From a phage: a stretch of DNA of 64,000 nucleotides. The position numbers and the translations under genes were made by a program. How positions within the stretch are numbered: the first letter of the stretch is position 1; the number at the start of each line of letters is the position of its first letter. The notes beneath the pieces were generated by a model. The model was given only the letters and a program-made list of their open reading frames with translations. It was not told the DNA's origin and did no database searches. Shown piece by piece: positions 1 through 27,498 of this stretch. The stretch lies in sequence record PZ386972.1, one strand, 5' to 3'.

Positions 1-2476
1 GCATCTTATGAAAGAATGCAGCTCTATCATTCGGTTTATCTTTGATATATTGTTCAACATGCTCAACCGTTACATCTTTAATAGACTCAAGATGATAATA
101 GCGAACAAGAAGTAGTTTAGCTTCATACGCATCTGCATGGCGGGGGGCACAATAATCAGGAGTTGAGTACAAAATGGCTTTGATTCGCTCTTCTGTATAC
201 TCTTTACCTGCACCTTCGATAGTTCCCCAGCTTTCACTGAAAATATCAATAGTTGCACCCTGATCAAGCAAGTAATAACGTAAAGTACTAGTATAGTTCC
301 TAGACTCCAGCTCCCTGCGACGTGCGTATAATTGCTGTGCTAACTCCAGCCAACCCTCATCAATGTTATATTGTTCAGAACCTGCGGAAAATCCACTCGT
401 AGATTTATCAATAAAATAATAAATGTTCTGAGCGCCACGGTCGCGCCTGATTGCTTGAAAACGCATGTTTGGCGCTTGGTTACTAGTTCTAGTAATAACG
501 AATACGTTATCAAAATAGTTGAAGTCAACACCACTCGTTACGGATGGACTACATAATAAGCAATCAATTTGTTGGTCAATTAGCTCATTAGTTGTGTAAT
601 CCAGAATACGTCGAATATCCACATCAGACGTAGAGTTTGAGTGGATTTCCTTAACTAACGCACCCGTATTACGACGCAATGCCATGCCCTTCTCATTCAG
701 TTCATCCGGACCACAGTCAGATACTAGGATAGATTTCTCACCCATCTCTAGGGAAGTCTGAAGTGCAACCCAAATACTGGATTCATCAGGGAACTCATAA
801 GCATGAGCTTTTGACAGCATTTTACGATGATGATTATAAAATGCAACCGGTTTATCAAACTCAATCAAAGAACCATATGCTTCAATTGTTTCTGCACTAA
901 TATCCCCATCAGATAATATAATGATTTTTGCAGTTGCAAGAATATCCCGAAGAACCTGAATGCACTCGCGACGTTGTTTAACAACCGGGGCGAATAATAG
1001 GTCATTCATTACTGCATCACATTCATCAATAAAGATTGCATCAATTTGACCAATAAAACTCTTGAACTTATGCAAAGAGTGAATAGTTGTGGACATACGG
1101 TCAATAGCACCACGCTTAAAATTAAGCATATCTACAGACTTATCATATTGTCCTGCGCTAAATTTCTTAGCGTTTGAAGATACCAGCGCTCTAGTATTTG
1201 TAACTGCTAAGAAATTACCTTTAATAACTCCTGAATCTAACCAACGCACAACCGCCGTGGTTTTACCTGTACCTAGACTTGCTTTTACAAAAGTCATATA
1301 ACCTTCTGGCGGTACAGTATTTAATTTCAAAAAGTTATCAGTTTCTAGGGAATTAGTTTCTAGCTTTTTAAGTGGAATACCTTTTAAAACATCAGGTATA
1401 TCACGTTTAGAATTATTAACAAACGCTTTCAGAGCCTGTTTACGACCGTTATTAAAGTAATCTTGAATATTACGACTATTATCTTTAGTTGCAATATATT
1501 CTGATAAGGCTGGACGGATTTCTTTTTCTAGCCATGCAAAATCAACACCATCCTCTAAAGCTCTGTGATAGAGTTTAGGTATGATACGTAGATACACTCC
1601 ATCCTCAGCTTCTTCTAGTTCGCTGATAGTTTCCTCTACTTTATCAGAGGCAGCTTTTTTACCTTTAATTTGATCGAGTAAAGAGTAAAACTCCTCCTTA
1701 AACTCACCTCTAGTTGTTTCATAGTCAACCAGATTATTAGGTAAATTTACTTTAGAACCCTTAACAAATACCAGACGTGAAGCACCCTCCGCCTTAAACG
1801 GATCTACTATACCATCAGTAAATAACGGATCTGCAAAATAATGGAGCTGTACGGAAGAGTAATAAGCTAAGTCGGCAATATCAAAGCCATACTTTTGTCT
1901 ACTACTTTCGTTGATAGATGTAAATAAGAATTTGATTTGACCCTGAGTTACTTTAACATTAGATTCTAGTATTAGGTGCATTCGGATACCTGGTTTTAGC
2001 CCAGCCGAAGACGATGCATGAGCGATAAACCCTGCATCGAGAGGAAACATGTCCTCACTAATACTATTTAACATTCTAATAATATGTCGAGCCATGCCAA
2101 CAAGATCAAACTTGTTACAACCACCTGTATCTACAATACCATCCACGTCCATTGCAATTATATGACTTGGATTAGATACATTAAAGTTGCCCTTCTTACG
2201 CCGCACATTATTTTTAGGTGCAAGACATCGACCTCGTACCGCAACGATATGAGGATCAGACGTTAAACGTCTCATAAGAGGGAGCATTTCTACTAGGGTT
2301 TGAGGATCAACTTCATCAATTACATCAAACTTGAAGGGCATTGAAGCTGGTTTACCTTCAGAATGCTTTGAGGAAAATCTTTTAGCAAAAAGATAGTCTT
2401 CTGCTTTAACTTCTCGCCAAATGCCTGTGGCTAAATCGCGATGAAATCCTGCATGACCTTGTAGGATTGAGAACAC
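1..2476 (-). CDS. SF2-type helicase/ATPase with large N-terminal domain (possible replication initiator or origin-binding helicase); 3' end runs past window start
   Basis: Uninterrupted minus-strand frame from GTG at about 2474-2476 (AGGAG 7 nt upstream) to position 1; translation shows Walker A GTGKTT and Walker B FIDECD; absent from ORF track because no stop lies inside the window. Confidence 0.55.
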   Translation of the reverse strand, partial: MFSILQGHAGFHRDLATGIWREVKAEDYLFAKRFSSKHSEGKPASMPFKFDVIDEVDPQTLVEMLPLMRRLTSDPHIVAVRGRCLAPKNNVRRKKGNFNVSNPSHIIAMDVDGIVDTGGCNKFDLVGMARHIIRMLNSISEDMFPLDAGFIAHASSSAGLKPGIRMHLILESNVKVTQGQIKFLFTSINESSRQKYGFDIADLAYYSSVQLHYFADPLFTDGIVDPFKAEGASRLVFVKGSKVNLPNNLVDYETTRGEFKEEFYSLLDQIKGKKAASDKVEETISELEEAEDGVYLRIIPKLYHRALEDGVDFAWLEKEIRPALSEYIATKDNSRNIQDYFNNGRKQALKAFVNNSKRDIPDVLKGIPLKKLETNSLETDNFLKLNTVPPEGYMTFVKASLGTGKTTAVVRWLDSGVIKGNFLAVTNTRALVSSNAKKFSAGQYDKSVDMLNFKRGAIDRMSTTIHSLHKFKSFIGQIDAIFIDECDAVMNDLLFAPVVKQRRECIQVLRDILATAKIIILSDGDISAETIEAYGSLIEFDKPVAFYNHHRKMLSKAHAYEFPDESSIWVALQTSLEMGEKSILVSDCGPDELNEKGMALRRNTGALVKEIHSNSTSDVDIRRILDYTTNELIDQQIDCLLCSPSVTSGVDFNYFDNVFVITRTSNQAPNMRFQAIRRDRGAQNIYYFIDKSTSGFSAGSEQYNIDEGWLELAQQLYARRRELESRNYTSTLRYYLLDQGATIDIFSESWGTIEGAGKEYTEERIKAILYSTPDYCAPRHADAYEAKLLLVRYYHLESIKDVTVEHVEQYIKDKPNDRAAFFHKM

Positions 2477-3095
2477 AACAATACTCCTGTGTTGGAAATG
2501 AAATAAGTTTTCTTTAGGACTATTCAGAAAGAATAGAACAACTGTTACTGTCAATTTCTCAACAAATTAATTGCAAATACTGAAGTGGGGTGGCAACTTC
2601 CACTTTCACGCTGCGCTGCTGCTTTGCTATATCGCACAAATCCTTGAGGATGGCCGCTAAGCCAGATTTGCTCACCTAATGCTTCATATACTAGCTCATA
2701 CTAGATGCAATATAACTTACAGAATCACGTCTCGGAGTTTTTCACTCCTCCCGTCTCACTTCACAACCACCTCTATCTAGGTTGCTTCGAGGCCTTACCA
2801 GGGTTCCTACGGGACGCAGATCGCTAAGTATTCTATTAACTATTTGTTTAAAAACTAACACGTAACAGTTAAAACAACCCTTAATGTGGCAGCCTAACTG
2901 TTCCGTATCGCGGATTGTAAACAAGAAAAATTAGCAAAATCAATTTTTACTAATGTCTCTCAATTCAATATAAATATTATACCAAGATTTTGGGCATCAT
3001 GCAAGTAAAATTTTCCGGATGGTGCTATCATTGGTCTTAAGTACGGATAAAACCGAGCCAAAATGACTCGGTAATCAGAGTTCAGCTAATAAAAA
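2477..3095. other. about 620 nt non-coding spacer, GC-richer than flanks, no ORF of 60 aa or more
   Basis: Only short ORFs in six-frame track; several local inverted repeats visible. Confidence 0.4.
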
Positions 3096-3488
3096 TCATT
3101 CATCATTTAATCCTGGAACATAGATCCCAACACGATTTAATTGTTCTTTAGCTTCTGCGAGAATATCTGGAGTGTACTCCCAAATATCGTCTTCCACCTG
3201 TAAAAGATGGGAAGAACAACCATCATGCGGCACACGACATATGGCCAAACCACGTGGATGGAACAAAGAGAAATTTAGGGCAACAATTAAACCCATAGCA
3301 GACAACTCATTCCAATCCAACTCCCATTCCCCCGCGTAGCCGGATAGGAAAACACCAACACAGGGATCATCTATTTGCTGCTCCGGAAAAGTGAAGGAGG
3401 CTTGTCTTACCCCCAACCAACGTTGTAGCAGCTTCTCCGCACGTTTCACCAAACTAGGATCAATCTGACGCCAATATACTTGTTCCAT
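3096..3488 (-). CDS. hypothetical protein, paralog of the adjacent 3498..3926 gene
   Basis: ORF track; shares DDP/EAPC-G, MGL-ALN-LF-P and PGL motifs with neighbour. Confidence 0.5.
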   Translation of the reverse strand: MEQVYWRQIDPSLVKRAEKLLQRWLGVRQASFTFPEQQIDDPCVGVFLSGYAGEWELDWNELSAMGLIVALNFSLFHPRGLAICRVPHDGCSSHLLQVEDDIWEYTPDILAEAKEQLNRVGIYVPGLNDE

Positions 3489-3497: not shown

Positions 3498-3926
3498 TTA
3501 AGCAGTTAAACCTGGGATCATATACCCGAAACGTCGAAGTTTCTGAATCCCATCATTTACTTCTTCCGGTGAGTAAGACCAACCGTAACGTTCATTAACC
3601 TGAAAACCAGGAGATTCACTAGTTTTATAGTTAACAACAAGGCGATGCTTAGCAGGCATAAACAGCTTATAGTTTAACGCAAAAACTAAGCCCATTTCAT
3701 CTAACTCTTTCCAGCCGACAATTTCTTCAAGACCCTCCTCTACCTGAACAATTAAACCAATACAGGGAGCCTCATCAATATCATCTTTAAAAGCAAAGGA
3801 GATTTCGTTATTCTCACACCATATTTTCAAAGAGTTAATAGCCTCATTATATAGGCTAGCTGGGAGAGTACGCCAAAAGTTAACCAAAATTGGGTTAGCT
3901 TCTTTAGAGAATACATTATTGAACAT
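3498..3926 (-). CDS. hypothetical protein, paralog of 3096..3488
   Basis: ORF track; tandem arrangement with 10 nt spacing; shared motifs with neighbour. Confidence 0.5.
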   Translation of the reverse strand: MFNNVFSKEANPILVNFWRTLPASLYNEAINSLKIWCENNEISFAFKDDIDEAPCIGLIVQVEEGLEEIVGWKELDEMGLVFALNYKLFMPAKHRLVVNYKTSESPGFQVNERYGWSYSPEEVNDGIQKLRRFGYMIPGLTA

Positions 3927-3928: not shown

Positions 3929-4435
3929 TTACACCTTAAATTGCTGTAAGGATTTACACATTTCAAGATCCGGACTAAATTCTAGCATATAGCTAACAGC
4001 TTTTAAATCTTGAAGATTTATCCCAGTCCTACCGTTGACTATAACCGTTGGATACTGATACATCATAGCACCCGCATCATCAAGCACACACCAATGTTTG
4101 AGCTTATGCTTTTCAACGAAGCGAAGAACAGAATTACCCCTAGATAATCCACCTCCAGTAAAATCCGTTGTACCAAGAAAGCGATCGATAAGACCTAATC
4201 CGGTCATAATCTGAACGTTCTCCATCTCATTTCTAACAGAGAACCAAGATGATACCCCAACAATCATTATTGGGGAAGGACGAATAAAGTCCTGAAAAGC
4301 CTTGAGAAGTGGTTTGAAAACCCAGTCACTTCCAAAGAAAATCTTTTCATCATCAGGTGCATGATGGTGGGAGATGCTCGAATTGAGCACCCCATCAATA
4401 TCTAGAAAAATAATTGGAGTATTACTTATTTCCAT
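3929..4435 (-). CDS. HAD-superfamily phosphatase (nucleotidase-like)
   Basis: N-terminal FLDIDGVL motif (DxDxV/T) typical of HAD hydrolases. Confidence 0.5.
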   Translation of the reverse strand: MEISNTPIIFLDIDGVLNSSISHHHAPDDEKIFFGSDWVFKPLLKAFQDFIRPSPIMIVGVSSWFSVRNEMENVQIMTGLGLIDRFLGTTDFTGGGLSRGNSVLRFVEKHKLKHWCVLDDAGAMMYQYPTVIVNGRTGINLQDLKAVSYMLEFSPDLEMCKSLQQFKV

Positions 4436-4604: not shown

Positions 4605-4780
4605 ACCTGTTTCTCCTCATCTCCAGAGGAGAACCACATATTATCCGTAGTATAGATAATTTTATATGTGTATCCCAACCGTTTTCTTACACTAGGAAAC
4701 CTGTAGGCAAACCTATAACACCAAGTGCCAGACTCAGTTATAAAAATATCCCATTCATTATTTCTTGCTTCTCGACACAT
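4595..4780 (-). CDS. small hypothetical protein with WCYR motif (paralog of 4422..4604)
   Basis: ORF track; motif DIFITESGTWCYR. Confidence 0.35.
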   Translation of the reverse strand: MCREARNNEWDIFITESGTWCYRFAYRFPSVRKRLGYTYKIIYTTDNMWFSSGDEEKQVCP

Positions 4781-5576
4781 AAGGTCTACCCTCTAAATGA
4801 GCTTCTACACGAGCAATAAAATCAGGATCACTGAAAGCATCTACCGCACCCTTACTCCAATAAGGGATACTACGTTCTTCCAGCTGGTACATCTCACTAC
4901 GAGTCATACCCTGATAGCCTGGCTCCGCTGCTAGGGCACTATCATAGTAGTTAACTACCATAAATTTCGCAGCAGTCCTATTAAGAACAGGAAATAATTC
5001 CCAGTAGAAGTTAATTACTTGGTTAGAGCAACCAACCACAACGATCATATCTTGGCTGGTAATACCATCAAAAACATTGTACATTTCTGCATATGCTGGA
5101 GCATGCTCTCCAAAGAAGATTACATTAGGTTTAACCCATTTATAATCATCTGGATCAATAGAAGTATATCCTACATCAATAACCAGTTTATTGCTACTAT
5201 TGTAGCTATCAGCTACAACAACCTCTTTTAAATATCCGTGAATGTGCAGAATGTCACTATGTGGAACGCCAGCACGCTCAATAAGGTCATCGACGTTGGT
5301 AGTCAAGTTTACTACTTGACCTGGATATTGTTTATACCATTCACCAATACGCAAATGCGCAAGATTGGGTTCAACAGTTTTTAGCTCTTCACGACGCTTG
5401 TTGTAAAACATATGGGTTTTATGATAAAAATTACCACGAAAGGCATGAATATTACATACTTCTTCTAGATCATAATCATCCCACAATGCTTTACCACTAG
5501 CAGTATCAGTACGAAAAGCTCGTACACCACTTTCAACACTCAAACCTGCACCGCTAATAATAATTAATCTACGCAT
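4758..5576 (-). CDS. Sir2-family NAD-dependent deacylase/ADP-ribosyltransferase-like protein
   Basis: N-terminal IISGAGLSVESGVRAFR matches the sirtuin GAGxSxxSGIxxFR NAD-binding signature. Confidence 0.65.
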   Translation of the reverse strand: MRRLIIISGAGLSVESGVRAFRTDTASGKALWDDYDLEEVCNIHAFRGNFYHKTHMFYNKRREELKTVEPNLAHLRIGEWYKQYPGQVVNLTTNVDDLIERAGVPHSDILHIHGYLKEVVVADSYNSSNKLVIDVGYTSIDPDDYKWVKPNVIFFGEHAPAYAEMYNVFDGITSQDMIVVVGCSNQVINFYWELFPVLNRTAAKFMVVNYYDSALAAEPGYQGMTRSEMYQLEERSIPYWSKGAVDAFSDPDFIARVEAHLEGRPYVSRSKK

Positions 5577-7935: not shown

Positions 7936-7964
7936 TATACTCTCCTTCTCTAACTAAGACTACT

Positions 7965-7993
7965 ATTATAACTCATTCGAGGGCGGATGTCAA
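7965..7993 (-). promoter_or_regulatory. sigma70 consensus promoter (TTGACA-17-TATAAT on minus strand) driving nrdD
   Basis: Reverse complement of the plus strand reads TTGACA, 17 nt spacer, TATAAT. Confidence 0.6.
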
Positions 7994-8044
7994 CAATATT
8001 TTACTATAAAGTTCTGTAACATGATCTGAGTCAAAAAATTTTAT

Positions 8045-8073
8045 TTGCCAATTTCTATTAAAAATTGTATAAT
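8045..8073 (+). promoter_or_regulatory. promoter TTGCCA-17-TATAAT followed by palindrome CACGCACTCGTGCACGCG
   Basis: Seen in sequence upstream of phoH. Confidence 0.5.
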
Positions 8074-8186
8074 CACGCACTCGTGCACGCGATATAAAAT
8101 GATTATCTAGTATCACACATCTCACGTTAAAAGCAAGCAAATTTTTTATTTAAATGCAATATCATAGGCTTATTTAAAATTGTAGT

Positions 8187-8214
8187 TGCTTTTTACTGTA
8201 TATATTGGTATAAT
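8187..8214 (+). promoter_or_regulatory. T5-type early promoter (TTGCTT-16-TATAAT)
   Basis: Member of the dispersed promoter module family. Confidence 0.55.
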
Positions 8215-8287
8215 ATATTTGTAAGTTGATAAACAAGATCTTTTTGTTGATCCTCTGTTAGCGAAGTACACTATAGGAGTGTTATTT

Positions 8288-21239: not shown

Positions 21240-22029
21240 TAAATTAGGGAACAGCGAGCCGATTACGCTGAGTGCAGAATCCCAACCGGAGCGCATTGAA
21301 TAGAGTCGGTGGGTTAGTTGTAAAACTAGTACACAGGGGGCGGCAATCCCGGTTAGTGGCTAGAACGTGTAAAATGAGGCGTCTGAAACCTCTCCCCTAA
21401 ACTCTTCTCTGATTTATAAATAGTGGGGTGTGGAAATCACTTATGTAGTAACACTGCCGTCCTAGTATAATTGGTATTATCAAGCCGTAACTGGTGGAAG
21501 ATGTAGGTTCGAATCCTACGGTCGGTAAGAACTGGATAACTGATGCTTTTAACGTAAAAGCTTCCTAGGTTAGTTGCGCACTGCCTAAACCACGCGGTAG
21601 TTGGTTCCAGACTAACCAACCAGTCTGCTGAATAGTTTTATTACGATTTAACTATGTCCAGGCTAAAGAAGAACTTTAGAAGGTATTCTAGGATAGTGAA
21701 GTTCTTTCTCCATATCGGAGTAGTTTTTCAAGCTATCCACAAAGTGGGAAATGCTGACATGAGAGATGTCACTAATGGTGCACAATAGCACAGGTAATTC
21801 GCGATAACTCCTGTTGAGTAGCAGCAAAAGGTGGGAAGTCATGACCCCAAGCCTAACCGAGTCCTCAATATACCGCAGGACATAACCACTAAGTCACCCT
21901 GACTTAAACTGGAAAATAATAGACGTTACTGTATTTTGTCTTGAAATACTTAATGAGTGAGACTTATGACTCTCCCGGTATCGTCTGTATTTTTAAGAGT
22001 TTTTACGAGAGTTCTTAAAAATACTTAAA
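21240..22029 (+). ncRNA. about 790 nt structured non-coding transcript region (candidate stable RNAs)
   Basis: No ORF of 60 aa or more on plus strand; multiple hairpins such as AAGAACTT/AAGTTCTT and TTTTTAAGAGT/GAGTTCTTAAAAA; lies between promoter and first tRNA. Confidence 0.3.
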
Positions 22030-22101
22030 CGGGGTGTAGTCTAAGGGAGAGGCAGGAGTCTTCTAAATTCCTTTATGCAGGTTCGAATCCTGTCACCTCG
22101 G
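22030..22101 (+). tRNA. tRNA-Arg (anticodon TCT)
   Basis: Acceptor CGGGGTG/CACCTCG, anticodon loop CTTCTAA, T-arm GCAGG-TTCGAAT-CCTGT, encoded CCA. Confidence 0.7.
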
Positions 22102-22138
22102 CCAATTTTATTAACTGTAACTAAAACAAAGGAAATAT

Positions 22139-23086
22139 ATGTTTAATACTAAAAATATGAAAGAACTGACTTCTGAGCAGAAAGTAATTCGTACTATTAA
22201 ACGTTGGGGTATTGGTGCTGTAGTTGGTTTAGCAGGCTTGATTCTAGCCTTTAATTCATATACTATTGTTTCTGATGGTACGGTTAAAACTCAAACATTC
22301 CTGGGTAAAGTAGATCCTAATCCAGTATTGCCGGGTTTCCATCTTGTAAACCCGTTTGCATCTTTCGATACTTTTAGTACAAAAGATATTGCTGTAAAAT
22401 TAGATAAACTTCAGGTTCCTAGTCAGGATAAGTTTAAATCCACTGTTGACCTGACTGTTATGTTGCAATTTGATGGTTCTAAGGCACCGATTAACCGTAT
22501 TAACGCAGGTACTCAGGATCAGGCACTAGACAAGTATGTAACTGAAAAATTACTGTCTACTATTCGTGAGTTTGGTAAGTCTGTACCTAAAGCACAAGAT
22601 TTGTTTGATGCTAAAATTCAGGCTCAATTGCAAACTGCAATTCAACAGGAAGTTGAAGAGTATGCGCGCCCATATGGTTACACAGTTAAGCAGGTATTCC
22701 TTCAGGATATTACCTTGCCGCCAGTAATCATGGAACAGGTACAGAATACCAAAGTTCGTGAAGAGCAAGTTAATGCTGCGAAAGCTGAACTTGCTCGCGT
22801 TGAACAGGAAGCACAGCAAAAAGTTAAACAAGCAGAAGCAGATCGTGAAGCTCGTAACAACCAAGCTATTGCTAATGAACGTGACGCAGATGCTAAACTG
22901 TACGCAGCTAAGAAAGAAGCTGAAGCTAACGCCGCATTGCAACGTACCATTACTCCTGAAATGATTCGTTGGAAACAACTGGAAGTTGAAATGATCCGTG
23001 CTCAGAAGTATCAAGGTGGTGTACCTCAGACTGTGGTAGGTACTGGCTACGATGGTCAAATGATCATGGATATGCGTAATAAATAA
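22139..23086 (+). CDS. SPFH/band-7 (HflC/prohibitin-like) membrane protein
   Basis: N-terminal TM helix, SPFH-like core, C-terminal Ala/Glu-rich coiled coil. Confidence 0.55.
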   Translation: MFNTKNMKELTSEQKVIRTIKRWGIGAVVGLAGLILAFNSYTIVSDGTVKTQTFLGKVDPNPVLPGFHLVNPFASFDTFSTKDIAVKLDKLQVPSQDKFKSTVDLTVMLQFDGSKAPINRINAGTQDQALDKYVTEKLLSTIREFGKSVPKAQDLFDAKIQAQLQTAIQQEVEEYARPYGYTVKQVFLQDITLPPVIMEQVQNTKVREEQVNAAKAELARVEQEAQQKVKQAEADREARNNQAIANERDADAKLYAAKKEAEANAALQRTITPEMIRWKQLEVEMIRAQKYQGGVPQTVVGTGYDGQMIMDMRNK

Positions 23087-23110
23087 TACCCGCATGTAAC
23101 ATCTGAAGTA

Positions 23111-23146
23111 AGCCCTGCGTTTCCTGGAGAGCGCAGGGCTTTTCTA
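23111..23146 (+). terminator. rho-independent terminator
   Basis: AGCCCTGCG...CGCAGGGCT hairpin followed by TTTTC. Confidence 0.6.
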
Positions 23147-23182
23147 TATAATGTAATTATAAAACTAACTAGGAGATTAAAC

Positions 23183-23701
23183 ATGGGTGTTGATGAATTA
23201 ACACAGCATCTTCTATCTAGAGGATTTGATGCGGATAAATATCATTGCTGGTTAAGTCCGGAAGGATGGCTAACAGTCCCGTTGTATGATTTCTCTGGGA
23301 TGTTGAGGGGCTATCAAACTTATAATCCTTCTGCTCCAAAAGGTCATGGTAAGTGTCCCTTTGAAGCTAAATATTTTACCTATTCTACTACCCAGTGTGT
23401 ATGGGGATTAGAAACTCTCAATGGAGATGAAAAAGTAGTATTGATCGCTGAATCTGTATTTAAGGCAGTTGCGTTACATAATGCTGGTTATCCAGCCCTA
23501 GCAATGTTGGGTTCTTCTCCAGGAAAAGCGTTATTAAAGCAACTGAAATTATTACCTTTTAAATTGGTAGCTGTCGGGGATAACGATCCTGCGGGTGAAA
23601 AATTTGCTAGAAAATTAAACGGCTTTGTTTCTCCTGTAGATGTGGATGAGATGTCTACAGAAAACTTGAAAAATTTTCTTGCTATGAAGCTAAATTTCTA
23701 A
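23183..23701 (+). CDS. Toprim-domain protein
   Basis: Conserved acidic residues LIAESVFKA and VGDNDPAGEKFA resemble the Toprim E and DxD motifs. Confidence 0.4.
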   Translation: MGVDELTQHLLSRGFDADKYHCWLSPEGWLTVPLYDFSGMLRGYQTYNPSAPKGHGKCPFEAKYFTYSTTQCVWGLETLNGDEKVVLIAESVFKAVALHNAGYPALAMLGSSPGKALLKQLKLLPFKLVAVGDNDPAGEKFARKLNGFVSPVDVDEMSTENLKNFLAMKLNF

Positions 23702-23707
23702 TATAAT
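23679..23707 (+). promoter_or_regulatory. T5-type promoter overlapping the 3' end of the upstream CDS
   Basis: TTGCTA-17-TATAAT ending about 15 nt before tRNA-Ser. Confidence 0.5.
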
Positions 23708-23722
23708 ATATCTTATAAATTC

Positions 23723-23808
23723 GGAAGAATAGCATAACGGTATTGCAGCAGATTGCTAATCTGTCGGTTTGAAATATAGCCTTGTGGGTTCGATTCCCAC
23801 TTCTTCCA
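23723..23808 (+). tRNA. tRNA-Ser (anticodon GCT), class II
   Basis: Acceptor GGAAGAA/TTCTTCC, anticodon loop TTGCTAA, long variable arm, T-arm GTGGG-TTCGATT-CCCAC, CCA encoded. Confidence 0.8.
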
Positions 23809-23817
23809 CCAAATTCT

Positions 23818-23892
23818 GGTTCTCAAGCTCATATGGTATGAGCACCCGGCTCATAACCGGAAGGTACGTAGGTTCGAATCCTCGGGGAGCCA
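23818..23892 (+). tRNA. tRNA with CAT anticodon (Met or Ile2)
   Basis: Acceptor GGTTCTC/GGGAGCC with wobbles, D-arm GCTC...GAGC, anticodon loop CTCATAA, TTCGAAT T-loop (imperfect T stem), CCA encoded. Confidence 0.6.
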
Positions 23893-23914
23893 CCAAATTA
23901 AATAAGGACAACTA

Positions 23915-24103
23915 ATGGAATTATTCATAGTTTCTGTTAAATTTGCACAAGATAGAGAACGTTCGGATGAGTTTAAACAAGGGTACAGACTAGTAAAGGC
24001 TACATCTGAACTCCATGCTATGGACAAAGTAGTAGACTATATGTATAATGTAGAAGATGTTTACTACGTCAATGCTTTAGAAGCCTCAAAAGTAATTAAC
24101 TAG
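23915..24103 (+). CDS. hypothetical protein
   Basis: ORF track. Confidence 0.4.
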   Translation: MELFIVSVKFAQDRERSDEFKQGYRLVKATSELHAMDKVVDYMYNVEDVYYVNALEASKVIN

Positions 24104-24112
24104 GGAGACTAT

Positions 24113-24289
24113 ATGTCTAAGTTTCAAGAACTCAAGCAAGAGCTAGAAGAGTGTGCCTGCCCTGAGTGTAGGGGAATTGGTGAAAGTTCTGATGCAGAAG
24201 CAGGAGATACTTTTTGCAATATCTGGGTTTGCCCAAATTGCAGTGGTACAGGTATTAATCCTAACTGCGGTATTTCCCCTAGATATTGA
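24113..24289 (+). CDS. small Cys-rich (zinc-ribbon-like) protein, 58 aa
   Basis: ATG 24113; CxxC...CxxC pairs (CPECRG, CPNCSG); below track cutoff. Confidence 0.35.
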   Translation: MSKFQELKQELEECACPECRGIGESSDAEAGDTFCNIWVCPNCSGTGINPNCGISPRY

Positions 24290-24400
24290 ACGAGGGTAAC
24301 ACCTGTGAAACTAAAAGATTATTATATTGGTTGGTTTGTGGGACTAGTAGTAGGATTTTCACTAGGCTATAATATGTATCAACTAATAAACTGATTACAT

Positions 24401-24474
24401 GGGGGTGTAATCGAATTGGCATAGGTACTGGACTTAAAATTCAGGTTTTGTGGGTTCGAATCCCACCACCCCTA
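24401..24474 (+). tRNA. tRNA with TAA anticodon (Leu by anticodon) but class I architecture
   Basis: Acceptor GGGGGTG/CACCCCT, anticodon stem CTGGA/TTCAG, loop CTTAAAA, 5-nt variable loop, T-arm GTGGG-TTCGAAT-CCCAC, CCA encoded; weak D stem. Confidence 0.5.
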
Positions 24475-24652
24475 CCAACTTAAGGAAATAAGATGTATAG
24501 ACATCCACCTCCGCCAACACGTCGTTCTAGAGAAGTTATCCTCATGGAATTGACGAAAAACTTCAAGGCAACTCTTGAAGATAGAGATCTAGGCACGGAT
24601 GAAGACATTGATTTTATTTGTAGACTATTAAAGATGAAACTGGAGAAACAAC

Positions 24653-24859
24653 ATGGCTAATCCTGAAATTACCGCACAACGTTTCATGCTTAAAGGCATG
24701 ATTGCTGAGGCAGGTATGACCCAAGAGGTTGCAGACTTTCATAAGCAATTTCTTGATATTATAACTCTAGCTAAAGAGACAGGAGAAAGAGAACACGGAG
24801 CAGCAATTATGGCTATATCTCTTATTAGCCTAGACTTAGCTGAAGAATCTGGAGTTTAG
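24653..24859 (+). CDS. hypothetical protein
   Basis: ORF track. Confidence 0.4.
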   Translation: MANPEITAQRFMLKGMIAEAGMTQEVADFHKQFLDIITLAKETGEREHGAAIMAISLISLDLAEESGV

Positions 24860-24889
24860 CTCCTCCAAACAGAATTTTTAAAAATGTAC

Positions 24890-24919
24890 TTGCCTTTTGC
24901 TTTAAATTTCTGGTATAAT
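24890..24919 (+). promoter_or_regulatory. T5-type early promoter
   Basis: TTGCCT-18-TATAAT. Confidence 0.55.
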
Positions 24920-24949
24920 AGTTATATAAATTGATGAAGGAGTTAACGA

Positions 24950-25225
24950 ATGCAAAATCGTGTTATAGCAACTGGTATTGAAAGTGCAATCTGTAAATCC
25001 TGGGAAGGCTGGGAAGGTGAGATTGAATGGCTTTATTTCTACGATGTAGAACTTCTGCCGGAAGTTAAAGCTAAATGTGTTGAAGCTGGCATGGCTCCAG
25101 ATGCAAAAGCTGATATTGATATTTCAATGTCTGAACTTAAAGGTCGTGTAATTACTGTTAGTGATGAGGGCGAAGAAGTTTTCGAACTTCCATTCTCCTT
25201 AACTGTCGCTCCTAAGTTCGACTAA
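24950..25225 (+). CDS. hypothetical acidic protein
   Basis: ORF track. Confidence 0.4.
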   Translation: MQNRVIATGIESAICKSWEGWEGEIEWLYFYDVELLPEVKAKCVEAGMAPDAKADIDISMSELKGRVITVSDEGEEVFELPFSLTVAPKFD

Positions 25226-25261
25226 CTAATACAGCACTGAGCAAGTTCTTTAAAATTTGAC

Positions 25262-25290
25262 TTGCTCAGTGCCATAAAACTTGATATAAT
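25262..25290 (+). promoter_or_regulatory. T5-type promoter; its -35 lies in the 3' arm of a long terminator-like inverted repeat
   Basis: CAGCACTGAGCAAG...CTTGCTCAGTGC inverted repeat at about 25232-25273, then TTGCTC-17-TATAAT. Confidence 0.55.
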
Positions 25291-25353
25291 AGTTATCTAA
25301 TTTGGAAACATATCTAAAAGTGTTTAAACTAGTATTTGAATACTTTTAAATAT

Positions 25354-25438
25354 GGGCGTTTATTCCGTAGATGGTAGCGGAGGGGATTGTAAATCCCTGG
25401 TCATTGCGACTCGAGTGGTTCGACTCCATTAACGCCCA
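25354..25438 (+). tRNA. tRNA-Tyr (anticodon GTA), class II
   Basis: Acceptor GGGCGTT/AACGCCC, anticodon loop TTGTAAA, long variable arm, T-arm GTGG-TTCGACT-CCAT, CCA encoded. Confidence 0.8.
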
Positions 25439-25459
25439 CCAAATTTAAAGGTAAAATAT

Positions 25460-25942
25460 ATGTACACTGATAGAATTGTTCAAGAAGCTGCAAACAGAGG
25501 TCTTATTGATCTGGGATCACCAGTTGATATAACTAAAGAGCTAATAACAGAGAGCCTTACGTTTGGCACAGCTAACTTTGGCCGAGATAGTAACCGTCGG
25601 TATAGCTTGAAACTATCAGCATTATCTTTTATTAAGTACAATAAGAGTATTGGAGAAAAATCAAGTTGTGGTTTTATCTACGCGATAACTAATCCAGCTT
25701 GGACTGATTATGTAAAAATTGGCATGTCTTCTGACCCAAAAACAAGATTAGCCAATTACCAGACATATTCTCCACTACGTGACTATAAGTTAATACATTG
25801 GTCATTTTGGTTTAATGCTAGAGAAGCAGAGAAAATGCTTCATAATAGCTTTCCAAAAAGAATTAATGAATGGGTAGTTTTGGACAGAAGTGTAGATGAA
25901 ACACTTGCTGATTTTAATAAACTATCTAATAAACAATTTTAA
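25460..25942 (+). CDS. T5orf172/GIY-YIG-like domain protein (homing-endonuclease-like) embedded in tRNA cluster
   Basis: GFIYAITNPAWTDYVKIGMSSDPKTRLANYQT matches the GIY-YIG-related T5orf172 signature. Confidence 0.5.
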   Translation: MYTDRIVQEAANRGLIDLGSPVDITKELITESLTFGTANFGRDSNRRYSLKLSALSFIKYNKSIGEKSSCGFIYAITNPAWTDYVKIGMSSDPKTRLANYQTYSPLRDYKLIHWSFWFNAREAEKMLHNSFPKRINEWVVLDRSVDETLADFNKLSNKQF

Positions 25943-25943
25943 T

Positions 25944-26015
25944 GCACCTATCATCTATCGGTTAGGACATCAGGTTTTCAACCTGAGAAGCTTGGTTCGA
26001 TTCCGTGTGGGTGTA
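25944..26015 (+). tRNA. tRNA-Glu (anticodon TTC)
   Basis: Acceptor GCACCTA/TGGGTGT, anticodon stem TCAGG/CCTGA, loop TTTTCAA, TTCGATT T-loop, CCA encoded. Confidence 0.7.
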
Positions 26016-26026
26016 CCAAATTCTGC

Positions 26027-26100
26027 ATTCCTAGAGTGTTACTGGACAGCATGTCGGTCTCCAAAACCGTACGGTCTAGGTTCGAGTCCTAGTAGGTTTG
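26027..26100 (+). tRNA. tRNA-Trp (anticodon CCA)
   Basis: Anticodon loop CTCCAAA, T-arm CTAGG-TTCGAGT-CCTAG, CCA encoded; acceptor stem has two U-U mismatches. Confidence 0.55.
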
Positions 26101-26109
26101 CCAAAATTT

Positions 26110-26181
26110 GCACCTTTAGCTGAGATGGATTAGCGCTTGCCTGAAGAGCTTGAGAGGTTCGTTCGATACGAACAGGGTGCA
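26110..26181 (+). tRNA. tRNA-Phe (anticodon GAA), tentative
   Basis: Acceptor GCACCTT/AGGGTGC, loop CTGAAGA, T-arm GTTCG-TTCGATA-CGAAC, CCA encoded; anticodon stem weak. Confidence 0.5.
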
Positions 26182-26201
26182 CCAAATTGAGGGAGCTGCT
26201 G

Positions 26202-26474
26202 ATGCATCCTGAAAACTTCTTTATTTACTGCGCGGATAAGTTGCTGAAACGTAGAATTAACAAAGTCTATCATTATCGTGCTAGTCAACAGCCTTATGTA
26301 TACGCTTTTGACGGTGATCACATCCCATTAGAACAACTATCTTGTGATTACATGATATTGAAGAACTTTGACGAGACAAAGATCTCAAGCGTTCATAATC
26401 GACAGAATCCCTTAACGTGGAAATATAAGAAGAAAAAGAAAGGCATCAAATTCTTAAAAAATGTAGTTGCTTAG
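26202..26474 (+). CDS. hypothetical protein
   Basis: ORF track (TTG 26187); ATG 26202 with GAGGGAG RBS preferred. Confidence 0.4.
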   Translation: MHPENFFIYCADKLLKRRINKVYHYRASQQPYVYAFDGDHIPLEQLSCDYMILKNFDETKISSVHNRQNPLTWKYKKKKKGIKFLKNVVA

Positions 26475-26495
26475 TTTCCAAAAGTTCTGTATAAT
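26467..26495 (+). promoter_or_regulatory. T5-type early promoter
   Basis: TTGCTT-17-TATAAT. Confidence 0.6.
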
Positions 26496-26523
26496 AATTA
26501 CATAAATTGAACTGGAGAAGCAA

Positions 26524-26811
26524 ATGAAACGATTAGTTAGATTTAAGTGTTGTGGTTCTGAACATATTTTCACACATCTTCGTGAATTTAAAATGTGTGA
26601 TTGTGGTAAATCAGGCTATGACTCAGGAGATGGGTTCTACACCCGTACTCTAGGGAACTTCAATGATCTAGAATTTGAAGATCTCGAAAAACAAGAAAAA
26701 GAATTATGTATCTGTTATGAATGTGGTGATCAAGATTACTACTCTAAAACAGGTAAGAAAGTGTGTAGCAATTGTGGTTCCGATCATGTAGCTACACATT
26801 ATGAAAGATAA
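26524..26811 (+). CDS. zinc-ribbon protein with four CxxC pairs
   Basis: CCGSEH, CDCG, CICYECG, CSNCG motifs. Confidence 0.45.
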   Translation: MKRLVRFKCCGSEHIFTHLREFKMCDCGKSGYDSGDGFYTRTLGNFNDLEFEDLEKQEKELCICYECGDQDYYSKTGKKVCSNCGSDHVATHYER

Positions 26812-26816
26812 TAAAC

Positions 26817-26889
26817 CGACCGTTGGCTGAATGGCTTAGGCGAAGGATTGCAAATCCTTTTTATGTGAGTTCAAATCTCATGCGGTCGT
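26817..26889 (+). tRNA. tRNA-Cys (anticodon GCA)
   Basis: Acceptor CGACCGT/GCGGTCG, anticodon stem AAGGA/TCCTT, loop TTGCAAA, T-arm GTGAG-TTCAAAT-CTCAT, CCA encoded. Confidence 0.75.
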
Positions 26890-26892
26890 CCA

Positions 26893-27044
26893 ATTTGCTG
26901 AAAGAATTGTTAAATCAATTCAGGCACGCGTAGGAACACTGTCTCCGTAATTGAAAGATGAGACACGGTTTGGAGAGGTATGCCGCTACACGCTACGGTG
27001 CTAACTCCGTCTAGGTGAAAATCCTAGTCAGCAATATAAATTTA
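26893..27044 (+). ncRNA. about 150 nt structured spacer between tRNA-Cys and tRNA-Asn (candidate small RNA)
   Basis: Hairpins such as GTCTC...GAGAC; no ORF. Confidence 0.25.
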
Positions 27045-27124
27045 GGGTCGTTAGCCAAGCGGTTTGGCGGTGGACTGTTAATCCATGTCGAAAGACAACG
27101 TAGGTTCGAATCCTACACGGCCCG
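27045..27124 (+). tRNA. tRNA with GTT anticodon (Asn) and unusually long 13-nt variable arm
   Basis: Acceptor GGGTCGT/ACGGCCC, D-arm GCCA...TGGC, anticodon stem GTGGA/TCCAT, loop CTGTTAA, variable GTCGAAAGACAAC, TTCGAAT T-loop, CCA encoded. Confidence 0.65.
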
Positions 27125-27229
27125 CCAAATTCTGTGTAGAGTTAAGTAAACCGGTAGCCAACCAGCTATCATTGCTGACATCGAATTCAGCCACAGATAC
27201 CATTTTCATTAATAACTGAGGAAACAAGC

Positions 27230-27415
27230 ATGTCCAAGAATGTAATTGCACAGTTAGAAGTTCATCGTGATAACACAGCTAATAACATTAAGTGCCGACA
27301 AAAAGATATTGAAGCTCAAAAGGCTGATCTTTTAATGAGTATTCGAGAGCTTAATGTACGAAAAGAGTTTCTTAAAGAACTTAATGCAGCTATTGAAAAA
27401 CTCAAAGCTGAGTAA
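27230..27415 (+). CDS. small coiled-coil protein
   Basis: ORF track. Confidence 0.35.
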   Translation: MSKNVIAQLEVHRDNTANNIKCRQKDIEAQKADLLMSIRELNVRKEFLKELNAAIEKLKAE

Positions 27416-27424
27416 ATGAATTAT

Positions 27425-27498
27425 GCGACCGGGGCTGGCTTGGTAATGGTACTCCCCTGTCACGGGAGGGAATGTGGGTTCGAATCCCATCGGTCGCG
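27425..27498 (+). tRNA. tRNA-Asp (anticodon GTC)
   Basis: Acceptor GCGACCG/CGGTCGC, anticodon stem CTCCC/GGGAG, loop CTGTCAC, T-arm GTGGG-TTCGAAT-CCCAT, CCA encoded. Confidence 0.8.

What the first reader, a model, noticed from the sequence alone, without database searches (positions are those of the whole stretch)
2477..3095. 620-nt ORF-free, GC-richer segment between the helicase-like gene and the paralog pair
Coding density elsewhere is very high, so a 0.6 kb gap stands out. It lies upstream of the minus-strand helicase-like gene and contains several inverted repeats, so it could hold that gene's promoter/leader, an origin-like element, or a small RNA.
Basis: seen in the sequence. Interest (0 to 1): 0.4.

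Follow-up and report, generated by a model that had tools for sequence, protein, structure and literature searches.

The report
Conserved structured RNA before T5 initiator-helicase gene
The 0.6-kb "empty" stretch in this T5-like phage holds a terminator, a strong early promoter and a roughly 490-base leader that folds into a large, evolutionarily conserved RNA structure matching no Rfam 15 family, always sitting just in front of the phage's replication-initiator helicase gene.

Summary
The window is a T5-like phage (Tequintavirus). The ORF-free gap 2477-3095 is real. It lies between the GTG start (2476, minus strand) of the "replication origin binding" helicase gene (T5.108 homologue, obp) and the upstream DUF7415 gene. 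Only its 246-nt core is GC-rich (0.49); the whole gap is 0.38.

Read on the minus strand, the gap contains:
- an intrinsic terminator (3052-3072);
- a sigma-70 promoter (TTGCAT-17-TATAAT, 3004-2976);
- a ~490-nt leader with two 5' hairpins, a long-range closing helix of 30 bp or more (2835-2872 with 2539-2571), and a multi-helix core.

On a sequence-only alignment of five lineages, 92.7% of pair cells form, against 35-45% in slid controls. 46 of 61 pairs show compensatory double changes. Many G:U pairs fix the strand as obp-sense. The leader is more conserved than obp synonymous sites (93-96% vs 70%). It holds no conserved ORF, iterons or DnaA boxes, and has no Rfam match.

A 530-1,590-nt non-coding stretch precedes obp in every relative examined, including Vibrio and Aeromonas phages.

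Verdict: a real, apparently undescribed structured RNA tied to the initiator gene. Its function (cis-regulation or processing, origin priming, or a trans-acting RNA) is not settled.

The parts
3046..3073 (-). Intrinsic terminator of the upstream DUF7415/HAD/Sir2 operon (ACCGAG...CTCGGT hairpin followed by TTTTAT)
   Evidence: Inverted repeat I16, 3052-3060 with 3064-3072. Hairpin conserved, with compensatory loop and stem changes, in alignment A1. Annotated as a terminator in T5 NC_005859, BF23 and HASG4. The simple scanner did not call it.
2976..3014 (-). Sigma-70 early promoter: A/T tract 3005-3014, -35 TTGCAT 3004-2999, 17-nt spacer with TG, -10 TATAAT 2981-2976; inferred start site near 2969
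   Evidence: Read from the sequence. Hexamers invariant across five lineages. Promoter annotated at the homologous place in T5. The -10 lies 480-506 nt from the obp start in most relatives. The start site itself is inferred, not mapped.
2923..2961 (-). H1: 5'-terminal hairpin of the transcript (from about +9)
   Evidence: MFE folds of all lineages. Consensus fold A7 with compensatory changes at several pairs.
2875..2917 (-). H2 with motif M1 (GAUACGGAACAG-UUAGG-CUGCC), nearly invariant in sequence
   Evidence: The CAG/CUG stem becomes CGG/CCG in L055.
2835..2872 (-). P1, 5' strand of the long-range closing helix
   Evidence: Pairs with 2539-2571 (inverted repeats I8 and I2; MFE). The arm sequences differ completely between lineages but always pair.
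2582..2827 (-). GC-rich core: P2 (2815-2824 with 2608-2619), P3 (2809-2814 with 2749-2754), P3b hairpin 2763-2785, P4 hairpin 2734-2748, conserved GAGACGUG 2726-2733, M4 hairpin 2636-2671 (loop GGCUUAGCGGCC), M6 hairpin 2583-2605 (loop GUUGCCA)
   Evidence: Consensus structure and pair counts. Covariance model R1 matches only this site in the window (283.9 bits). Coordinates. GC 0.488.
2539..2571 (-). P1, 3' strand of the closing helix
2520..2536 (-). hp3: small hairpin (CUAUUC-UUUCU-GAAUAG) between P1 and the ribosome-binding site; no U-run follows it
   Evidence: MFE. Stem differs but pairs in other lineages: CUAUC/GAUAG in L034, CUUUCC/GGAAAG in L042, UACUAU/AUAGUA in L055 (sequences).
2474..2488 (-). 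Shine-Dalgarno AGGAG (2488-2484) and GTG start (2476-2474) of the obp helicase gene
   Evidence: Sequence. CDS boundaries in related records. Pfam Herpes_ori_bp match.

Best explanation
The gap is a transcription-unit boundary followed by a large structured RNA. Read on the minus strand, the upstream early operon ends at an intrinsic terminator. A strong sigma-70 promoter then starts a transcript near 2969 that runs without a recognisable terminator into the initiator-helicase gene (obp, T5.108 homologue).

The first ~490 nt of that transcript form a conserved fold:
- a 5'-terminal hairpin (H1);
- a nearly invariant hairpin (H2/M1);
- a long-range helix of 30 bp or more (P1) that closes a GC-rich multi-helix core (P2, P3, P3b, P4);
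- a hairpin presenting the loop GGCUUAGCGGCC (M4);
- a hairpin presenting GUUGCCA (M6).

Shown here: the promoter and terminator by sequence and conservation, the fold, its strand, its conservation, and its fixed position before obp.

Inferred: it acts on or with the initiator gene's transcript. My preferred mechanism has three steps. H1 protects the 5' end. The long, near-perfect P1 duplex is an RNase III-type processing stem that separates the core RNA from the obp message, and so sets the stability and translation of the message. The invariant loops (UUAG(C)G-type, GUUGCCA) are contact sites for a protein, possibly the initiator itself, or for tertiary folding.

In Vibrio D302 and Aeromonas TS3 relatives, terminator-like hairpins separate the non-coding stretch from obp. 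The RNA product, not only the leader context, may therefore be what matters.

Confidence is split. That this is a genuine conserved structured RNA on the obp-sense strand: about 0.9. That its main role is cis-regulation or processing of obp expression: about 0.4.
For: Identity of the locus: T5-like phage, 97.7% identical to Salmonella phage LmqsSP1 over 6 kb. In T5 the homologous gap carries an annotated terminator and promoter, followed by about 470 unannotated nt.

Fold: sense z = -3.56 against antisense -1.21; T5 z = -2.53.

Covariation on a MAFFT sequence alignment of 15 sequences from 5 lineages:
- 61 pairs, 92.7% of cells paired against 35-45% when partners are slid;
- 46 pairs with changes on both sides, against 11-17 slid and 19.3 +/- 2.9 shuffled (0 of 500 shuffles reach it);
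- covariation score 0.467 against about 0.10.

Compensatory doubles occur even among roughly 93%-identical phages: CTGCG/CGCAG to CTACA/TGTAG, CCCGT/ACGGG to CCCAT/ATGGG, AGTGG/CCACT to AGGGG/CCCCT.

11 of 61 pairs have G:U as the commonest pair, so the fold is specific to the obp-sense strand.

The T5-type variant was not used to derive the structure. It keeps P2, P3, M4 and M6. Within it there are 7 compensatory pairs and only 3 broken cells between Tequintavirus and Epseptimavirus.

Purifying selection: leader 92.8-95.9% identical where obp third codon positions are 69.5-71%. In Vibrio phages the figures are 95% and 69%.

No conserved ORF.

Linkage to obp: a gap of 533-886 nt in 34 IMG/VR loci; 713 and 712 nt between annotated genes in two Vibrio phages, about 730 nt holding only tiny called ORFs in a third, and 1,591 nt in an Aeromonas phage, although the upstream neighbours differ.

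P1 stays a duplex of dG -27 to -44 kcal/mol in every lineage despite unrelated arm sequences.
Against: No transcript data were available. The start site, read-through into obp, and any RNase III cut are all inferred.

No conserved expression platform was found. There is no terminator-like site between the core and the start codon. The small hairpin that places the SD in a loop is not conserved in L042 or L043.

L037, L042 and L043 carry a consensus-like promoter immediately upstream of obp, overlapping the 3' arm of P1 (sequences). There obp need not depend on the leader.

A 330-nt multi-helix core is far more elaborate than known autoregulatory operators.

The structure was derived by RNAalifold from the same alignment on which it was counted, which inflates the 'cells paired' measure.

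For Vibrio relatives the fold z-scores are not significant, and model R1 finds nothing in Vibrio, Aeromonas, L037 or L039. Homology across the whole family rests on position, conservation and short shared motifs only.
Confidence: 0.5

Rival explanations
1. Origin transcript. The structured RNA is a pre-primer or R-loop-forming RNA, in the manner of ColE1 RNA II or the phage T4 oriF/oriG and T7 primary-origin transcripts. Host RNA polymerase transcribes from the early promoter. The fold directs formation of a persistent RNA-DNA hybrid next to the initiator gene. The hybrid is processed to prime T5 DNA polymerase and to give the obp helicase an entry point.
For: The RNA sits immediately upstream of the gene matching Pfam Herpes_ori_bp (E 1.7e-7) and NCBIfam CyRepA1 plasmid Rep (E 8.7e-35, below the curated cutoff). 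This linkage persists at 25-34% obp identity. A promoter plus a ~490-nt structured transcript parallels RNA II in size. The gap lies at 58.9-59.5 kb of the 121.75-kb T5 genome (48.5%). T5 origins were mapped 'near the centre' of the molecule (bioRxiv 10.1101/866236).
Against: No antisense promoter for an RNA I-like regulator was found. There are no iterons, DnaA boxes or tandem repeats. The cumulative GC skew shows no inflection at the gap. In D302 and TS3 terminator-like hairpins end the RNA before obp. The electron-microscopy mapping is far too coarse to single out this site. The divergent-transcription point at 7936-8278 is an equally central candidate.
Confidence: 0.17
2. Free-standing trans-acting non-coding RNA. 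The core is excised at P1 (or terminated, in distant relatives) and accumulates as a stable RNA or RNP. Its job is not control of obp. It might instead sequester a host or phage protein through its repeated UUAG(C)G loops, for host take-over or anti-defence.
For: Size, multi-helix architecture and invariant loops resemble RNP-type RNAs more than attenuators. Distant relatives have terminator-like hairpins before obp (L046 1869-1887 and 1900-1916; TS3 hairpin plus T-run). L037, L042 and L043 have a separate promoter for obp. Loop motifs are repeated: two CUUAGCGG hairpins in TS3 and four GCCUUAG-type motifs in L037. The long P1 duplex is the kind of stem from which RNase III releases rRNAs (established knowledge; inference here).
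Against: The position directly before obp is invariant across family-level divergence while other neighbours change. A function unrelated to obp does not explain this. There is no accumulation or processing data. No similarity to a host RNA was found.
Confidence: 0.22
3. DNA-level element: a protein-binding or cruciform-forming replication origin, or another cis-acting DNA site, with the inverted repeats acting in duplex DNA.
For: Adjacent to the gene named 'origin binding'. The flanks are AT-rich (GC 0.29-0.33). Three AACWGTT palindrome-like sites lie in 618 bp, against 24 in the 64-kb window.
Against: The AACWGTT sites are simply the two arms of P1 plus H2. Helices span 230-330 nt. They tolerate G:U but not the A:C that the other strand would need. 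The antisense strand folds no better than shuffles. There are no iterons or DnaA boxes. Arm sequences are not conserved; only pairing is.
Confidence: 0.05
4. Evolutionary debris: a decayed gene or a remnant of a mobile element (for example a homing-endonuclease cassette or a MITE with terminal inverted repeats) with no function of its own.
For: T5-like genomes are rich in HNH endonuclease insertions. The inner part of the core differs as a block between the window type and the T5 type. Some relatives carry insertions of about 100 nt, or an extra small ORF, nearby.
Against: The leader is conserved well above synonymous sites. Substitutions are overwhelmingly compensatory. There are no ORF remnants shared between lineages. 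The element is present in all 906 records that encode obp only as far as sampled, but in every one examined.
Confidence: 0.03

Closest known systems
ColE1-type RNA II pre-primer (and the origin transcripts of phage T4 oriF/oriG and the T7 primary origin)
   Same: A host-RNA-polymerase promoter about 500 nt upstream of a replication function. A long transcript whose conserved stem-loops matter. Located in the replication module.
   Different: No antisense RNA I-type promoter. No evidence of an R-loop or of RNase H processing. The transcript here runs into a protein-coding initiator gene. No sequence or Rfam similarity.
RNase III processing stems flanking rRNAs and in T7 early mRNAs / the lambda N leader
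   Same: A long, nearly continuous duplex (32 bp in the window's MFE fold, 24 or more in every lineage) formed by sequences about 270 nt apart that encloses a structured RNA. It sits in a phage early transcript upstream of a gene.
   Different: Cleavage is untested. T7 R-sites are local hairpins with internal loops rather than domain-closing helices. What is enclosed here is not rRNA.
Large phage-associated 'ornate' RNAs GOLLD and ROOL
   Same: Hundreds of nucleotides, multi-helix, strong covariation, found in phage genomes that carry tRNA clusters, function unknown.
   Different: No match to their Rfam models. Smaller (about 330-490 nt). Fixed position before the initiator-helicase gene rather than next to tRNAs. 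Restricted, as far as seen, to T5-like phages (Demerecviridae).
Structured 5' leaders that autoregulate phage replication genes (T4 gene 43 and gene 32 operators) and plasmid rep-gene leaders (IncB/IncI, R1)
   Same: A structured RNA immediately upstream of a replication gene on the same transcript.
   Different: Those operators are hairpins or pseudoknots of 30-100 nt overlapping the ribosome-binding site, often with an antisense RNA. Here the conserved fold is about 330 nt, ends about 60 nt before the SD, and has no conserved SD-sequestering helix.
Bacterial RNase P RNA (CR-V/P4 strand ACAGAAnnCGGCUUAnCGG)
   Same: The T5-type sequence AUAGAAUCGGCUUAGCGG resembles the CR-V consensus as I recall it (a lead from memory, not a test). 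The phage carries 22 tRNA genes.
   Different: No RNase P model of Rfam matched even at E <= 10. The motif here is the loop of a local hairpin, not a P4 strand. No CR-I partner was found.

Membership tests
Any Rfam 15 family (4,227 covariance models) | Score at or above the family's gathering threshold, or at least a significant E-value | tested here: not met
   Whole window at gathering thresholds: only the tRNAs matched. Positions 2300-3300 at E <= 10: only chance snoRNA-type matches, E 2.8-9.6. Nine related loci at E <= 5: only terminator-like chance matches outside the core.
Bacterial RNase P RNA | P4 helix formed by CR-I and CR-V, and a match to the RF00010/RF00011 models | tested here: not met
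   No RNase P hit at E <= 10. GGCUUAGCGG lies in a hairpin loop whose stem covaries.
GOLLD / ROOL large phage RNAs | Match to the family covariance models | tested here: not met
   no hit.
ColE1 RNA II-type origin pre-primer | Promoter several hundred nt upstream and a structured transcript | tested here: met
   Promoter 3004-2976; leader of about 490 nt with a conserved fold.
ColE1 RNA II-type origin pre-primer | Antisense regulator RNA (RNA I) with its own promoter and terminator on the opposite strand | tested here: not met
   No plus-strand promoter-like or terminator-like site in 2300-3300. This was a simple consensus scan only.
ColE1 RNA II-type origin pre-primer | Persistent RNA-DNA hybrid at the origin, cut by RNase H to prime DNA synthesis | not testable with these tools
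   Needs R-loop mapping and nascent-strand mapping.
Classical iteron/DnaA-box replication origin | Clustered direct repeats (iterons) or DnaA boxes next to an AT-rich unwinding element | tested here: not met
   No tandem or multi-copy direct repeats. No TTATNCACA within one mismatch in 2477-3095, whereas perfect boxes cluster at 50.47-50.55 and 54.46-54.54 kb. The flanks are only moderately AT-rich.
Riboswitch / attenuator-type cis-regulatory leader | Located in the 5' UTR of the regulated gene | tested here: met
   Promoter, leader and obp lie on one strand with no intervening terminator-like site in the window.
Riboswitch / attenuator-type cis-regulatory leader | Conserved expression platform (terminator/antiterminator, or an SD-sequestering helix) | tested here: not met
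   No terminator-like site between the core and the start codon. The local CAACA/UGUUG hairpin around the SD is absent from L042 and L043.
RNase III processing stem | About 20 bp or more of nearly continuous double-stranded RNA | tested here: met
   P1 is 32 bp in the window's MFE fold and 24-29 bp in other lineages. Duplex dG -27 to -44 kcal/mol.
RNase III processing stem | Staggered cleavage in vivo that depends on rnc | not testable with these tools
   Needs end mapping in wild-type and rnc hosts.
T5 early sigma-70 promoter plus rho-independent terminator | Consensus hexamers with 17-nt spacing; GC hairpin followed by a U-run | tested here: met
   TTGCAT-17(TG)-TATAAT and ACCGAG...CTCGGT-TTTTAT. 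Conserved. Annotated in T5, BF23 and HASG4. Activity was not measured here.

The most novel reading that the evidence does not exclude
The RNA is the missing cis- or trans-determinant of T5 replication initiation. In this reading it is a structured origin RNA that forms the priming R-loop, or acts as a cofactor or loading platform for the obp initiator helicase encoded right after it. It would define the 'central' origin of T5-like phages at sequence resolution, and would represent an RNA-dependent initiation mechanism not described for this phage family.
Probability: 0.17. Interest if true: 0.85.

Novelty: new variant of a known kind. Interest (0 to 1): 0.62.

Why it matters
T5 is a classical model phage, and its relatives are widely isolated for biocontrol: 526 records in the phage collection carry this stretch. 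Yet I found no annotation of this 0.6-kb region beyond a predicted promoter and terminator. The T5 origin is reported, as far as I found, only as 'near the centre' of the genome.

A large RNA fold with unusually clear covariation, welded to the initiator-helicase gene across family-level divergence, provides:
- a new structured-RNA family to add to RNA databases;
- a concrete, mutable target for asking how T5 controls or starts DNA replication;
- a warning to annotators, because several records call spurious 30-60-aa 'hypothetical proteins' or 'DNA primase C' across it.

If it is merely a processing or stability leader, it is still a useful example of a domain-closing processing stem in a phage early transcript.

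Tried and rejected
- **Rfam at permissive thresholds**, on the window and nine relatives: nothing.
- **tRNA/tmRNA scan:** none in the gap.
- **Myb-like AACNGTT binding sites for obp.** The enrichment is explained by the arms of P1 and H2, so I dropped the idea.
- **RNase P-like CR-V resemblance:** rejected on Rfam and structural context.
- **Small protein gene:** ORFs of 25-73 aa differ in frame, strand and position between lineages.
The 246-position core model R1 was used instead.
- **R1 with default filters** missed the T5-type cores. With filters off it found them only weakly. It found nothing convincing in L037, L039, Vibrio or Aeromonas loci, so family-wide homology is not demonstrated by the model.
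- **Fold z-scores of Vibrio leaders:** not significant.
- **mafft-qinsi structural alignment:** unavailable.
- **The unassigned N-terminal 390 aa of obp.** Pfam, PDB profile and NCBIfam gave nothing. Single-sequence AlphaFold failed (pLDDT 34). The homologue search returned two fragments, and an MSA of locus translations was not accepted. My reading of DxD and SxH motifs as primase-polymerase-like remains an untested lead.
- **Metagenome and IMG/VR scans:** added few new lineages.
- **Literature:** no description of this region found. The supplement of the 2023 catalogue of about 10,000 viral structured-RNA candidates is not held, so prior listing there cannot be excluded.
- **E. coli genomes:** no similar sequence.
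Full report
**What the window is.** The first 6 kb are 96-98% identical to many T5-like phages (Tequintavirus), for example Salmonella phage LmqsSP1 and Escherichia phage APCEc03.

The minus-strand gene running off the left end is the homologue of T5.108, annotated 'replication origin binding protein'. It matches Pfam Herpes_ori_bp (E 1.7e-7) over residues 394-533. It also matches the NCBIfam plasmid Rep family CyRepA1 (E 8.7e-35, below the curated cutoff) over residues 393-723. Its N-terminal 390 residues match no family.

The genes on the other side of the gap are two DUF7415 paralogues, a HAD_SAK_2 protein and a Sir2 protein.

**Checking the observation.** The helicase gene starts with GTG at 2476, seven bases after an AGGAG at 2484-2488. 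The next gene occupies 3096-3488.
- It is one of the largest ORF-free stretches outside the tRNA cluster.
- Most sampled database records annotate nothing in it. A few-60-aa 'hypothetical proteins' or stretch a neighbouring annotation across it.
- 'GC-richer' is only partly right. The core 2582-2827 has GC 0.488 against a window mean of 0.391. The whole gap is 0.383 and its flanks are 0.29-0.33.
- The inverted repeats exist.

**Anatomy, read on the minus strand (the strand of the helicase gene).**
1. A GC hairpin followed by TTTTAT at 3052-3072 ends the upstream operon. It is annotated as a terminator in T5, BF23 and HASG4.
2. Next comes a promoter, TTGCAT-17 nt (with TG)-TATAAT, at 3004-2976, preceded by an A/T tract. 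The T5 reference annotates a promoter at the homologous place, and the hexamers are invariant in five lineages.
3. From an inferred start near 2969, about 490 nt precede the start codon. No terminator-like site intervenes.

In 34 IMG/VR loci the distance from the -10 to the obp start is 480-506 nt in most. It is about 600 nt in three loci with an insertion, and 621-773 nt in the most distant enterobacterial relatives.

**The leader is a structured RNA.** The sense strand folds much better than shuffled controls (z = -3.56). The antisense strand does not (z = -1.21). T5's leader gives z = -2.53.

Independent MFE folds of seven lineages share one architecture (window coordinates):
- a 5'-terminal hairpin H1 (2923-2961);
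- a nearly invariant hairpin H2/M1, GAUACGGAACAG-UUAGG-CUGCC (2875-2917);
- a long-range helix P1 (2835-2872 with 2539-2571);
- a GC-rich core closed by P1 (2582-2827);
- a small hairpin hp3 (2520-2536).

The P1 arm sequences are unrelated between lineages yet always pair. Examples are UUAACUGUUAC/GUAACAGUU in the window type, AUUAUUAUACAG/CUGUAUAAUAAU in L042 and GGUUAUUAUAUAAC/GUUAUAUAAUAACC in L043. Duplex energies are -27 to -44 kcal/mol.

**Covariation.** I used a plain MAFFT alignment, not fitted to any structure. It holds 15 sequences from five lineages: ten window-type, L042, L043, L055, and L034/L054. RNAalifold gave 61 pairs in 13 helices. Counting them gave:

| Measure | Observed | Partners slid by 1-3 columns | Shuffled |
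|---|---|---|---|
| Cells forming standard pairs | 92.7% | 35-45% | 78.7% |
| Pairs with changes on both sides | 46 | 11-17 | 19.3 +/- 2.9 (0 of 500 reach it) |
| Covariation score | 0.467 | 0.09-0.12 | 0.214 |

Caveat: the structure was derived from the same alignment, which inflates the 'paired' measure. Three further observations are free of that problem.
- First, compensatory doubles occur among phages only about 5-8% apart. P2 changes from CTGCG/CGCAG to CTACA/TGTAG. P3 changes from CCCGT/ACGGG to CCCAT/ATGGG. The M6 stem changes from AGTGG/CCACT to AGGGG/CCCCT.
- Second, the T5-type leaders were not used to derive the structure. With filters off, model R1 finds them as the top hit at the homologous position (E 9e-4 to 0.04). 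They keep P2, P3 and the M4 hairpin, and L030 also keeps the M6 hairpin.
- Third, the T5-type group alone (16 sequences) shows seven compensatory pairs between Tequintavirus and Epseptimavirus members and only three broken cells.

Eleven of the 61 pairs have G:U as their commonest form. On the opposite strand these would be A:C mismatches. With helices spanning 230-330 nt, this points to an obp-sense RNA rather than duplex DNA.

**Conserved loops.** The M4 hairpin presents GGCUUAGCGGCC. Its stem differs in every lineage:
- window type: CAAAUCU/AGGAUUUG;
- T5: AUAGAAUC/GGUUCUAU;
- L042: GUGCGGGU/ACCCUGCAC;
- L055: GUGGU/ACCAC;
- L034: CCACAUG.../...CAUG..GUGUGG.

The CUUAGCGG motif recurs in L039, in L037 (with related copies) and twice in the 1.6-kb gap of Aeromonas phage TS3. 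In both TS3 cases it lies in hairpins.

A second hairpin, M6, presents GUUGCCA. Its stems are AAGUGG/CCACUU, UAAGGG/CCCUUA or GAGG/CCUC.

H2's loop UUAGG resembles the UUAGCG at the tip of M4. Repeated loops of this kind suggest a protein-binding or tertiary-contact role (inference).

**Selection and coding potential.**

| Comparison | Leader identity | obp third codon positions | obp positions 1+2 |
|---|---|---|---|
| L026 vs L030 | 92.8% | 71% | 94% |
| L013 vs L018 | 95.9% | 69.5% | 94.5% |
| Vibrio VPG01 vs Luma | 95% | 69% | 96.7% |

In the Vibrio pair several visibly compensatory hairpin changes occur, for example CUAUAUAG...CUAUAUAG to CCGUAUGG...CUGUAUGG.

The longest ORFs (25-73 aa, mostly TTG/GTG starts) differ in frame, strand and position between lineages. 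No conserved small protein is encoded.

**Distribution.** 526 phage records match the gap by DNA, and 906 encode an obp homologue.

Every relative examined keeps a long non-coding stretch directly upstream of obp, on the same strand, although the upstream neighbours change:

| Relatives | Length of the stretch before obp |
|---|---|
| 34 IMG/VR loci | 533-886 nt |
| Vibrio phage VPG01 | 713 nt |
| Vibrio phage Luma | 712 nt |
| Vibrio phage D302 | about 730 nt, holding only tiny called ORFs |
| Aeromonas phage TS3 | 1,591 nt |

Model R1 does not detect the Vibrio, Aeromonas, L037 or L039 versions, and the Vibrio fold z-scores are unremarkable. Homology across the whole family therefore rests on position, conservation and short motifs, not on a statistical match.

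In D302, two terminator-like hairpins lie 85-130 nt before obp. In TS3, a hairpin plus T-run does the same. L037, L042 and L043 have a consensus-like promoter immediately before obp, overlapping the 3' arm of P1. In those phages the RNA looks like a unit of its own.

**What it is not.**
- No Rfam 15 family matches, at gathering thresholds or at E <= 10, in the window or in nine relatives. This covers RNase P, GOLLD, ROOL, riboswitches and ribozymes.
- No tRNA or tmRNA lies in the gap.
- There are no iterons or tandem repeats.
- There are no DnaA boxes in the gap, whereas perfect boxes cluster at 50.47-50.55 and 54.46-54.54 kb.
- The cumulative GC skew shows no inflection.
- No similar sequence exists in 5,426 E. 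coli genomes.
- The three AACWGTT sites that first looked like binding sites are the arms of P1 and H2.

**How it most likely works.** Shown: the terminator, promoter and leader layout; a conserved, strand-specific RNA fold; and tight linkage to the initiator-helicase gene. The rest is inference.

I favour a cis role on the early obp transcript:
- H1 at the 5' end would stabilise the message.
- P1, a duplex of 24-32 bp, is the kind of stem RNase III cuts in rRNA precursors and phage early mRNAs. A cut would release the core and leave obp with a short leader beginning near hp3.
- The invariant loops would bind a factor, possibly the initiator itself.

Two rivals remain live:
- **An origin transcript in the manner of ColE1 RNA II or T4/T7 origins.** The locus is at 48.5% of the T5 genome, and T5 origins were mapped 'near the centre' (bioRxiv 10.1101/866236). 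However, no antisense regulator and no ori hallmarks were found.
- **A free trans-acting RNA.** The terminators and separate obp promoters in some lineages support this.

A purely DNA-level element and evolutionary debris are both unlikely, given the covariation and conservation.

**Novelty.** I found no description of this region in the searchable literature. The T5 and BF23 annotations stop at the promoter and terminator. A 2023 catalogue of about 10,000 candidate viral structured RNAs could include it, but its tables are not available here.

I rate it a new structured-RNA family of a broadly known kind (a conserved phage leader or non-coding RNA). One unexcluded reading, an RNA-dependent step in T5 replication initiation, would be considerably more important.

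Noticed in passing
window 50379-50945 and 54156-54889: Two other large ORF-free stretches carry clusters of perfect DnaA boxes: TTATCCACA at 50471, 50544, 54457, 54469 and 54530, plus near-matches. This resembles the DnaA-box-rich 'injection stop signal' non-coding region described for T5-like terminal repeats (bioRxiv 10.1101/866236).
   Followed up: partly
window 7936-8278: A 343-nt gap where transcription diverges: the 624-aa minus-strand gene (NrdD homologue in related records) on one side, plus-strand genes from 8279 on the other. It is an alternative candidate position for a central replication origin. Not analysed.
   Followed up: no
window 21456-32428: Cluster of 22 tRNA genes on the plus strand, interspersed with small ORFs. 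ARAGORN and Rfam agree on most of them.
   Followed up: no
window 3929-4435 and 4758-5576 (minus strand): The operon that ends at the gap's terminator encodes a protein with the HAD domain of 'Swiss Army Knife' RNA-repair proteins (PF18143, E 4e-20) and a Sir2-family protein, next to two DUF7415 paralogues (3096-3488, 3498-3926). This is an RNA-repair or NAD-related flavour next to a tRNA-rich genome.
   Followed up: partly
L026/L030 2150-2398 versus window 2582-2827: Two structural variants of the core exist. The window type and the T5 type share H1, H2, P1, P2, P3, M4 and M6 but have unrelated inner subdomains (P3a/P3b/P4/P5 region). The leader is 74.5% identical between the two types while obp positions 1+2 are 92% identical. 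This looks like a cassette-like replacement, or very fast divergence, of part of the RNA.
   Followed up: partly
L009, L029, L036 (about 100 nt after H1); L001 3581-3775; L005 2104-2301: Some relatives carry an insertion of about 100 nt right after H1. Others have an extra 195-198-nt annotated ORF between the upstream gene and the terminator. The boundary is a hotspot for small insertions, while the core stays intact.
   Followed up: no
L037 1850-2425; L039 2063-2390; L044 1507-1823: Distant relatives show direct repeats spaced 293-315 nt apart inside their longer non-coding stretches. Examples are AAAGGGGTCCCGAGC / AAGGGGAACCCGAGC in L037 and TGATCTCTGTGGGAGT / TGATCTCTGAGGGAGT in Vibrio VPG01. 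L037 also has four GCCUUAG-type motifs. This may be a tandem duplication of an RNA module.
   Followed up: partly
window 1307-2476 (minus strand), N-terminal 390 aa of obp: This well-conserved domain has many invariant residues, including an A-x-D-V-D and an H-A-S-S-S-A-G...H stretch. It matches no Pfam, NCBIfam or PDB entry. Some records label the gene 'DNA primase C'. It could be a primase-polymerase-like domain, but this was not testable here.
   Followed up: partly
window 2954-3014, matched in Klebsiella T5-like phages (H82-H86): The promoter segment of the gap matches two places per genome in Klebsiella phages at about 84% identity, inside regions annotated 'DNA helicase'. This probably reflects a shared early-promoter consensus and over-extended gene calls.
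   Followed up: no
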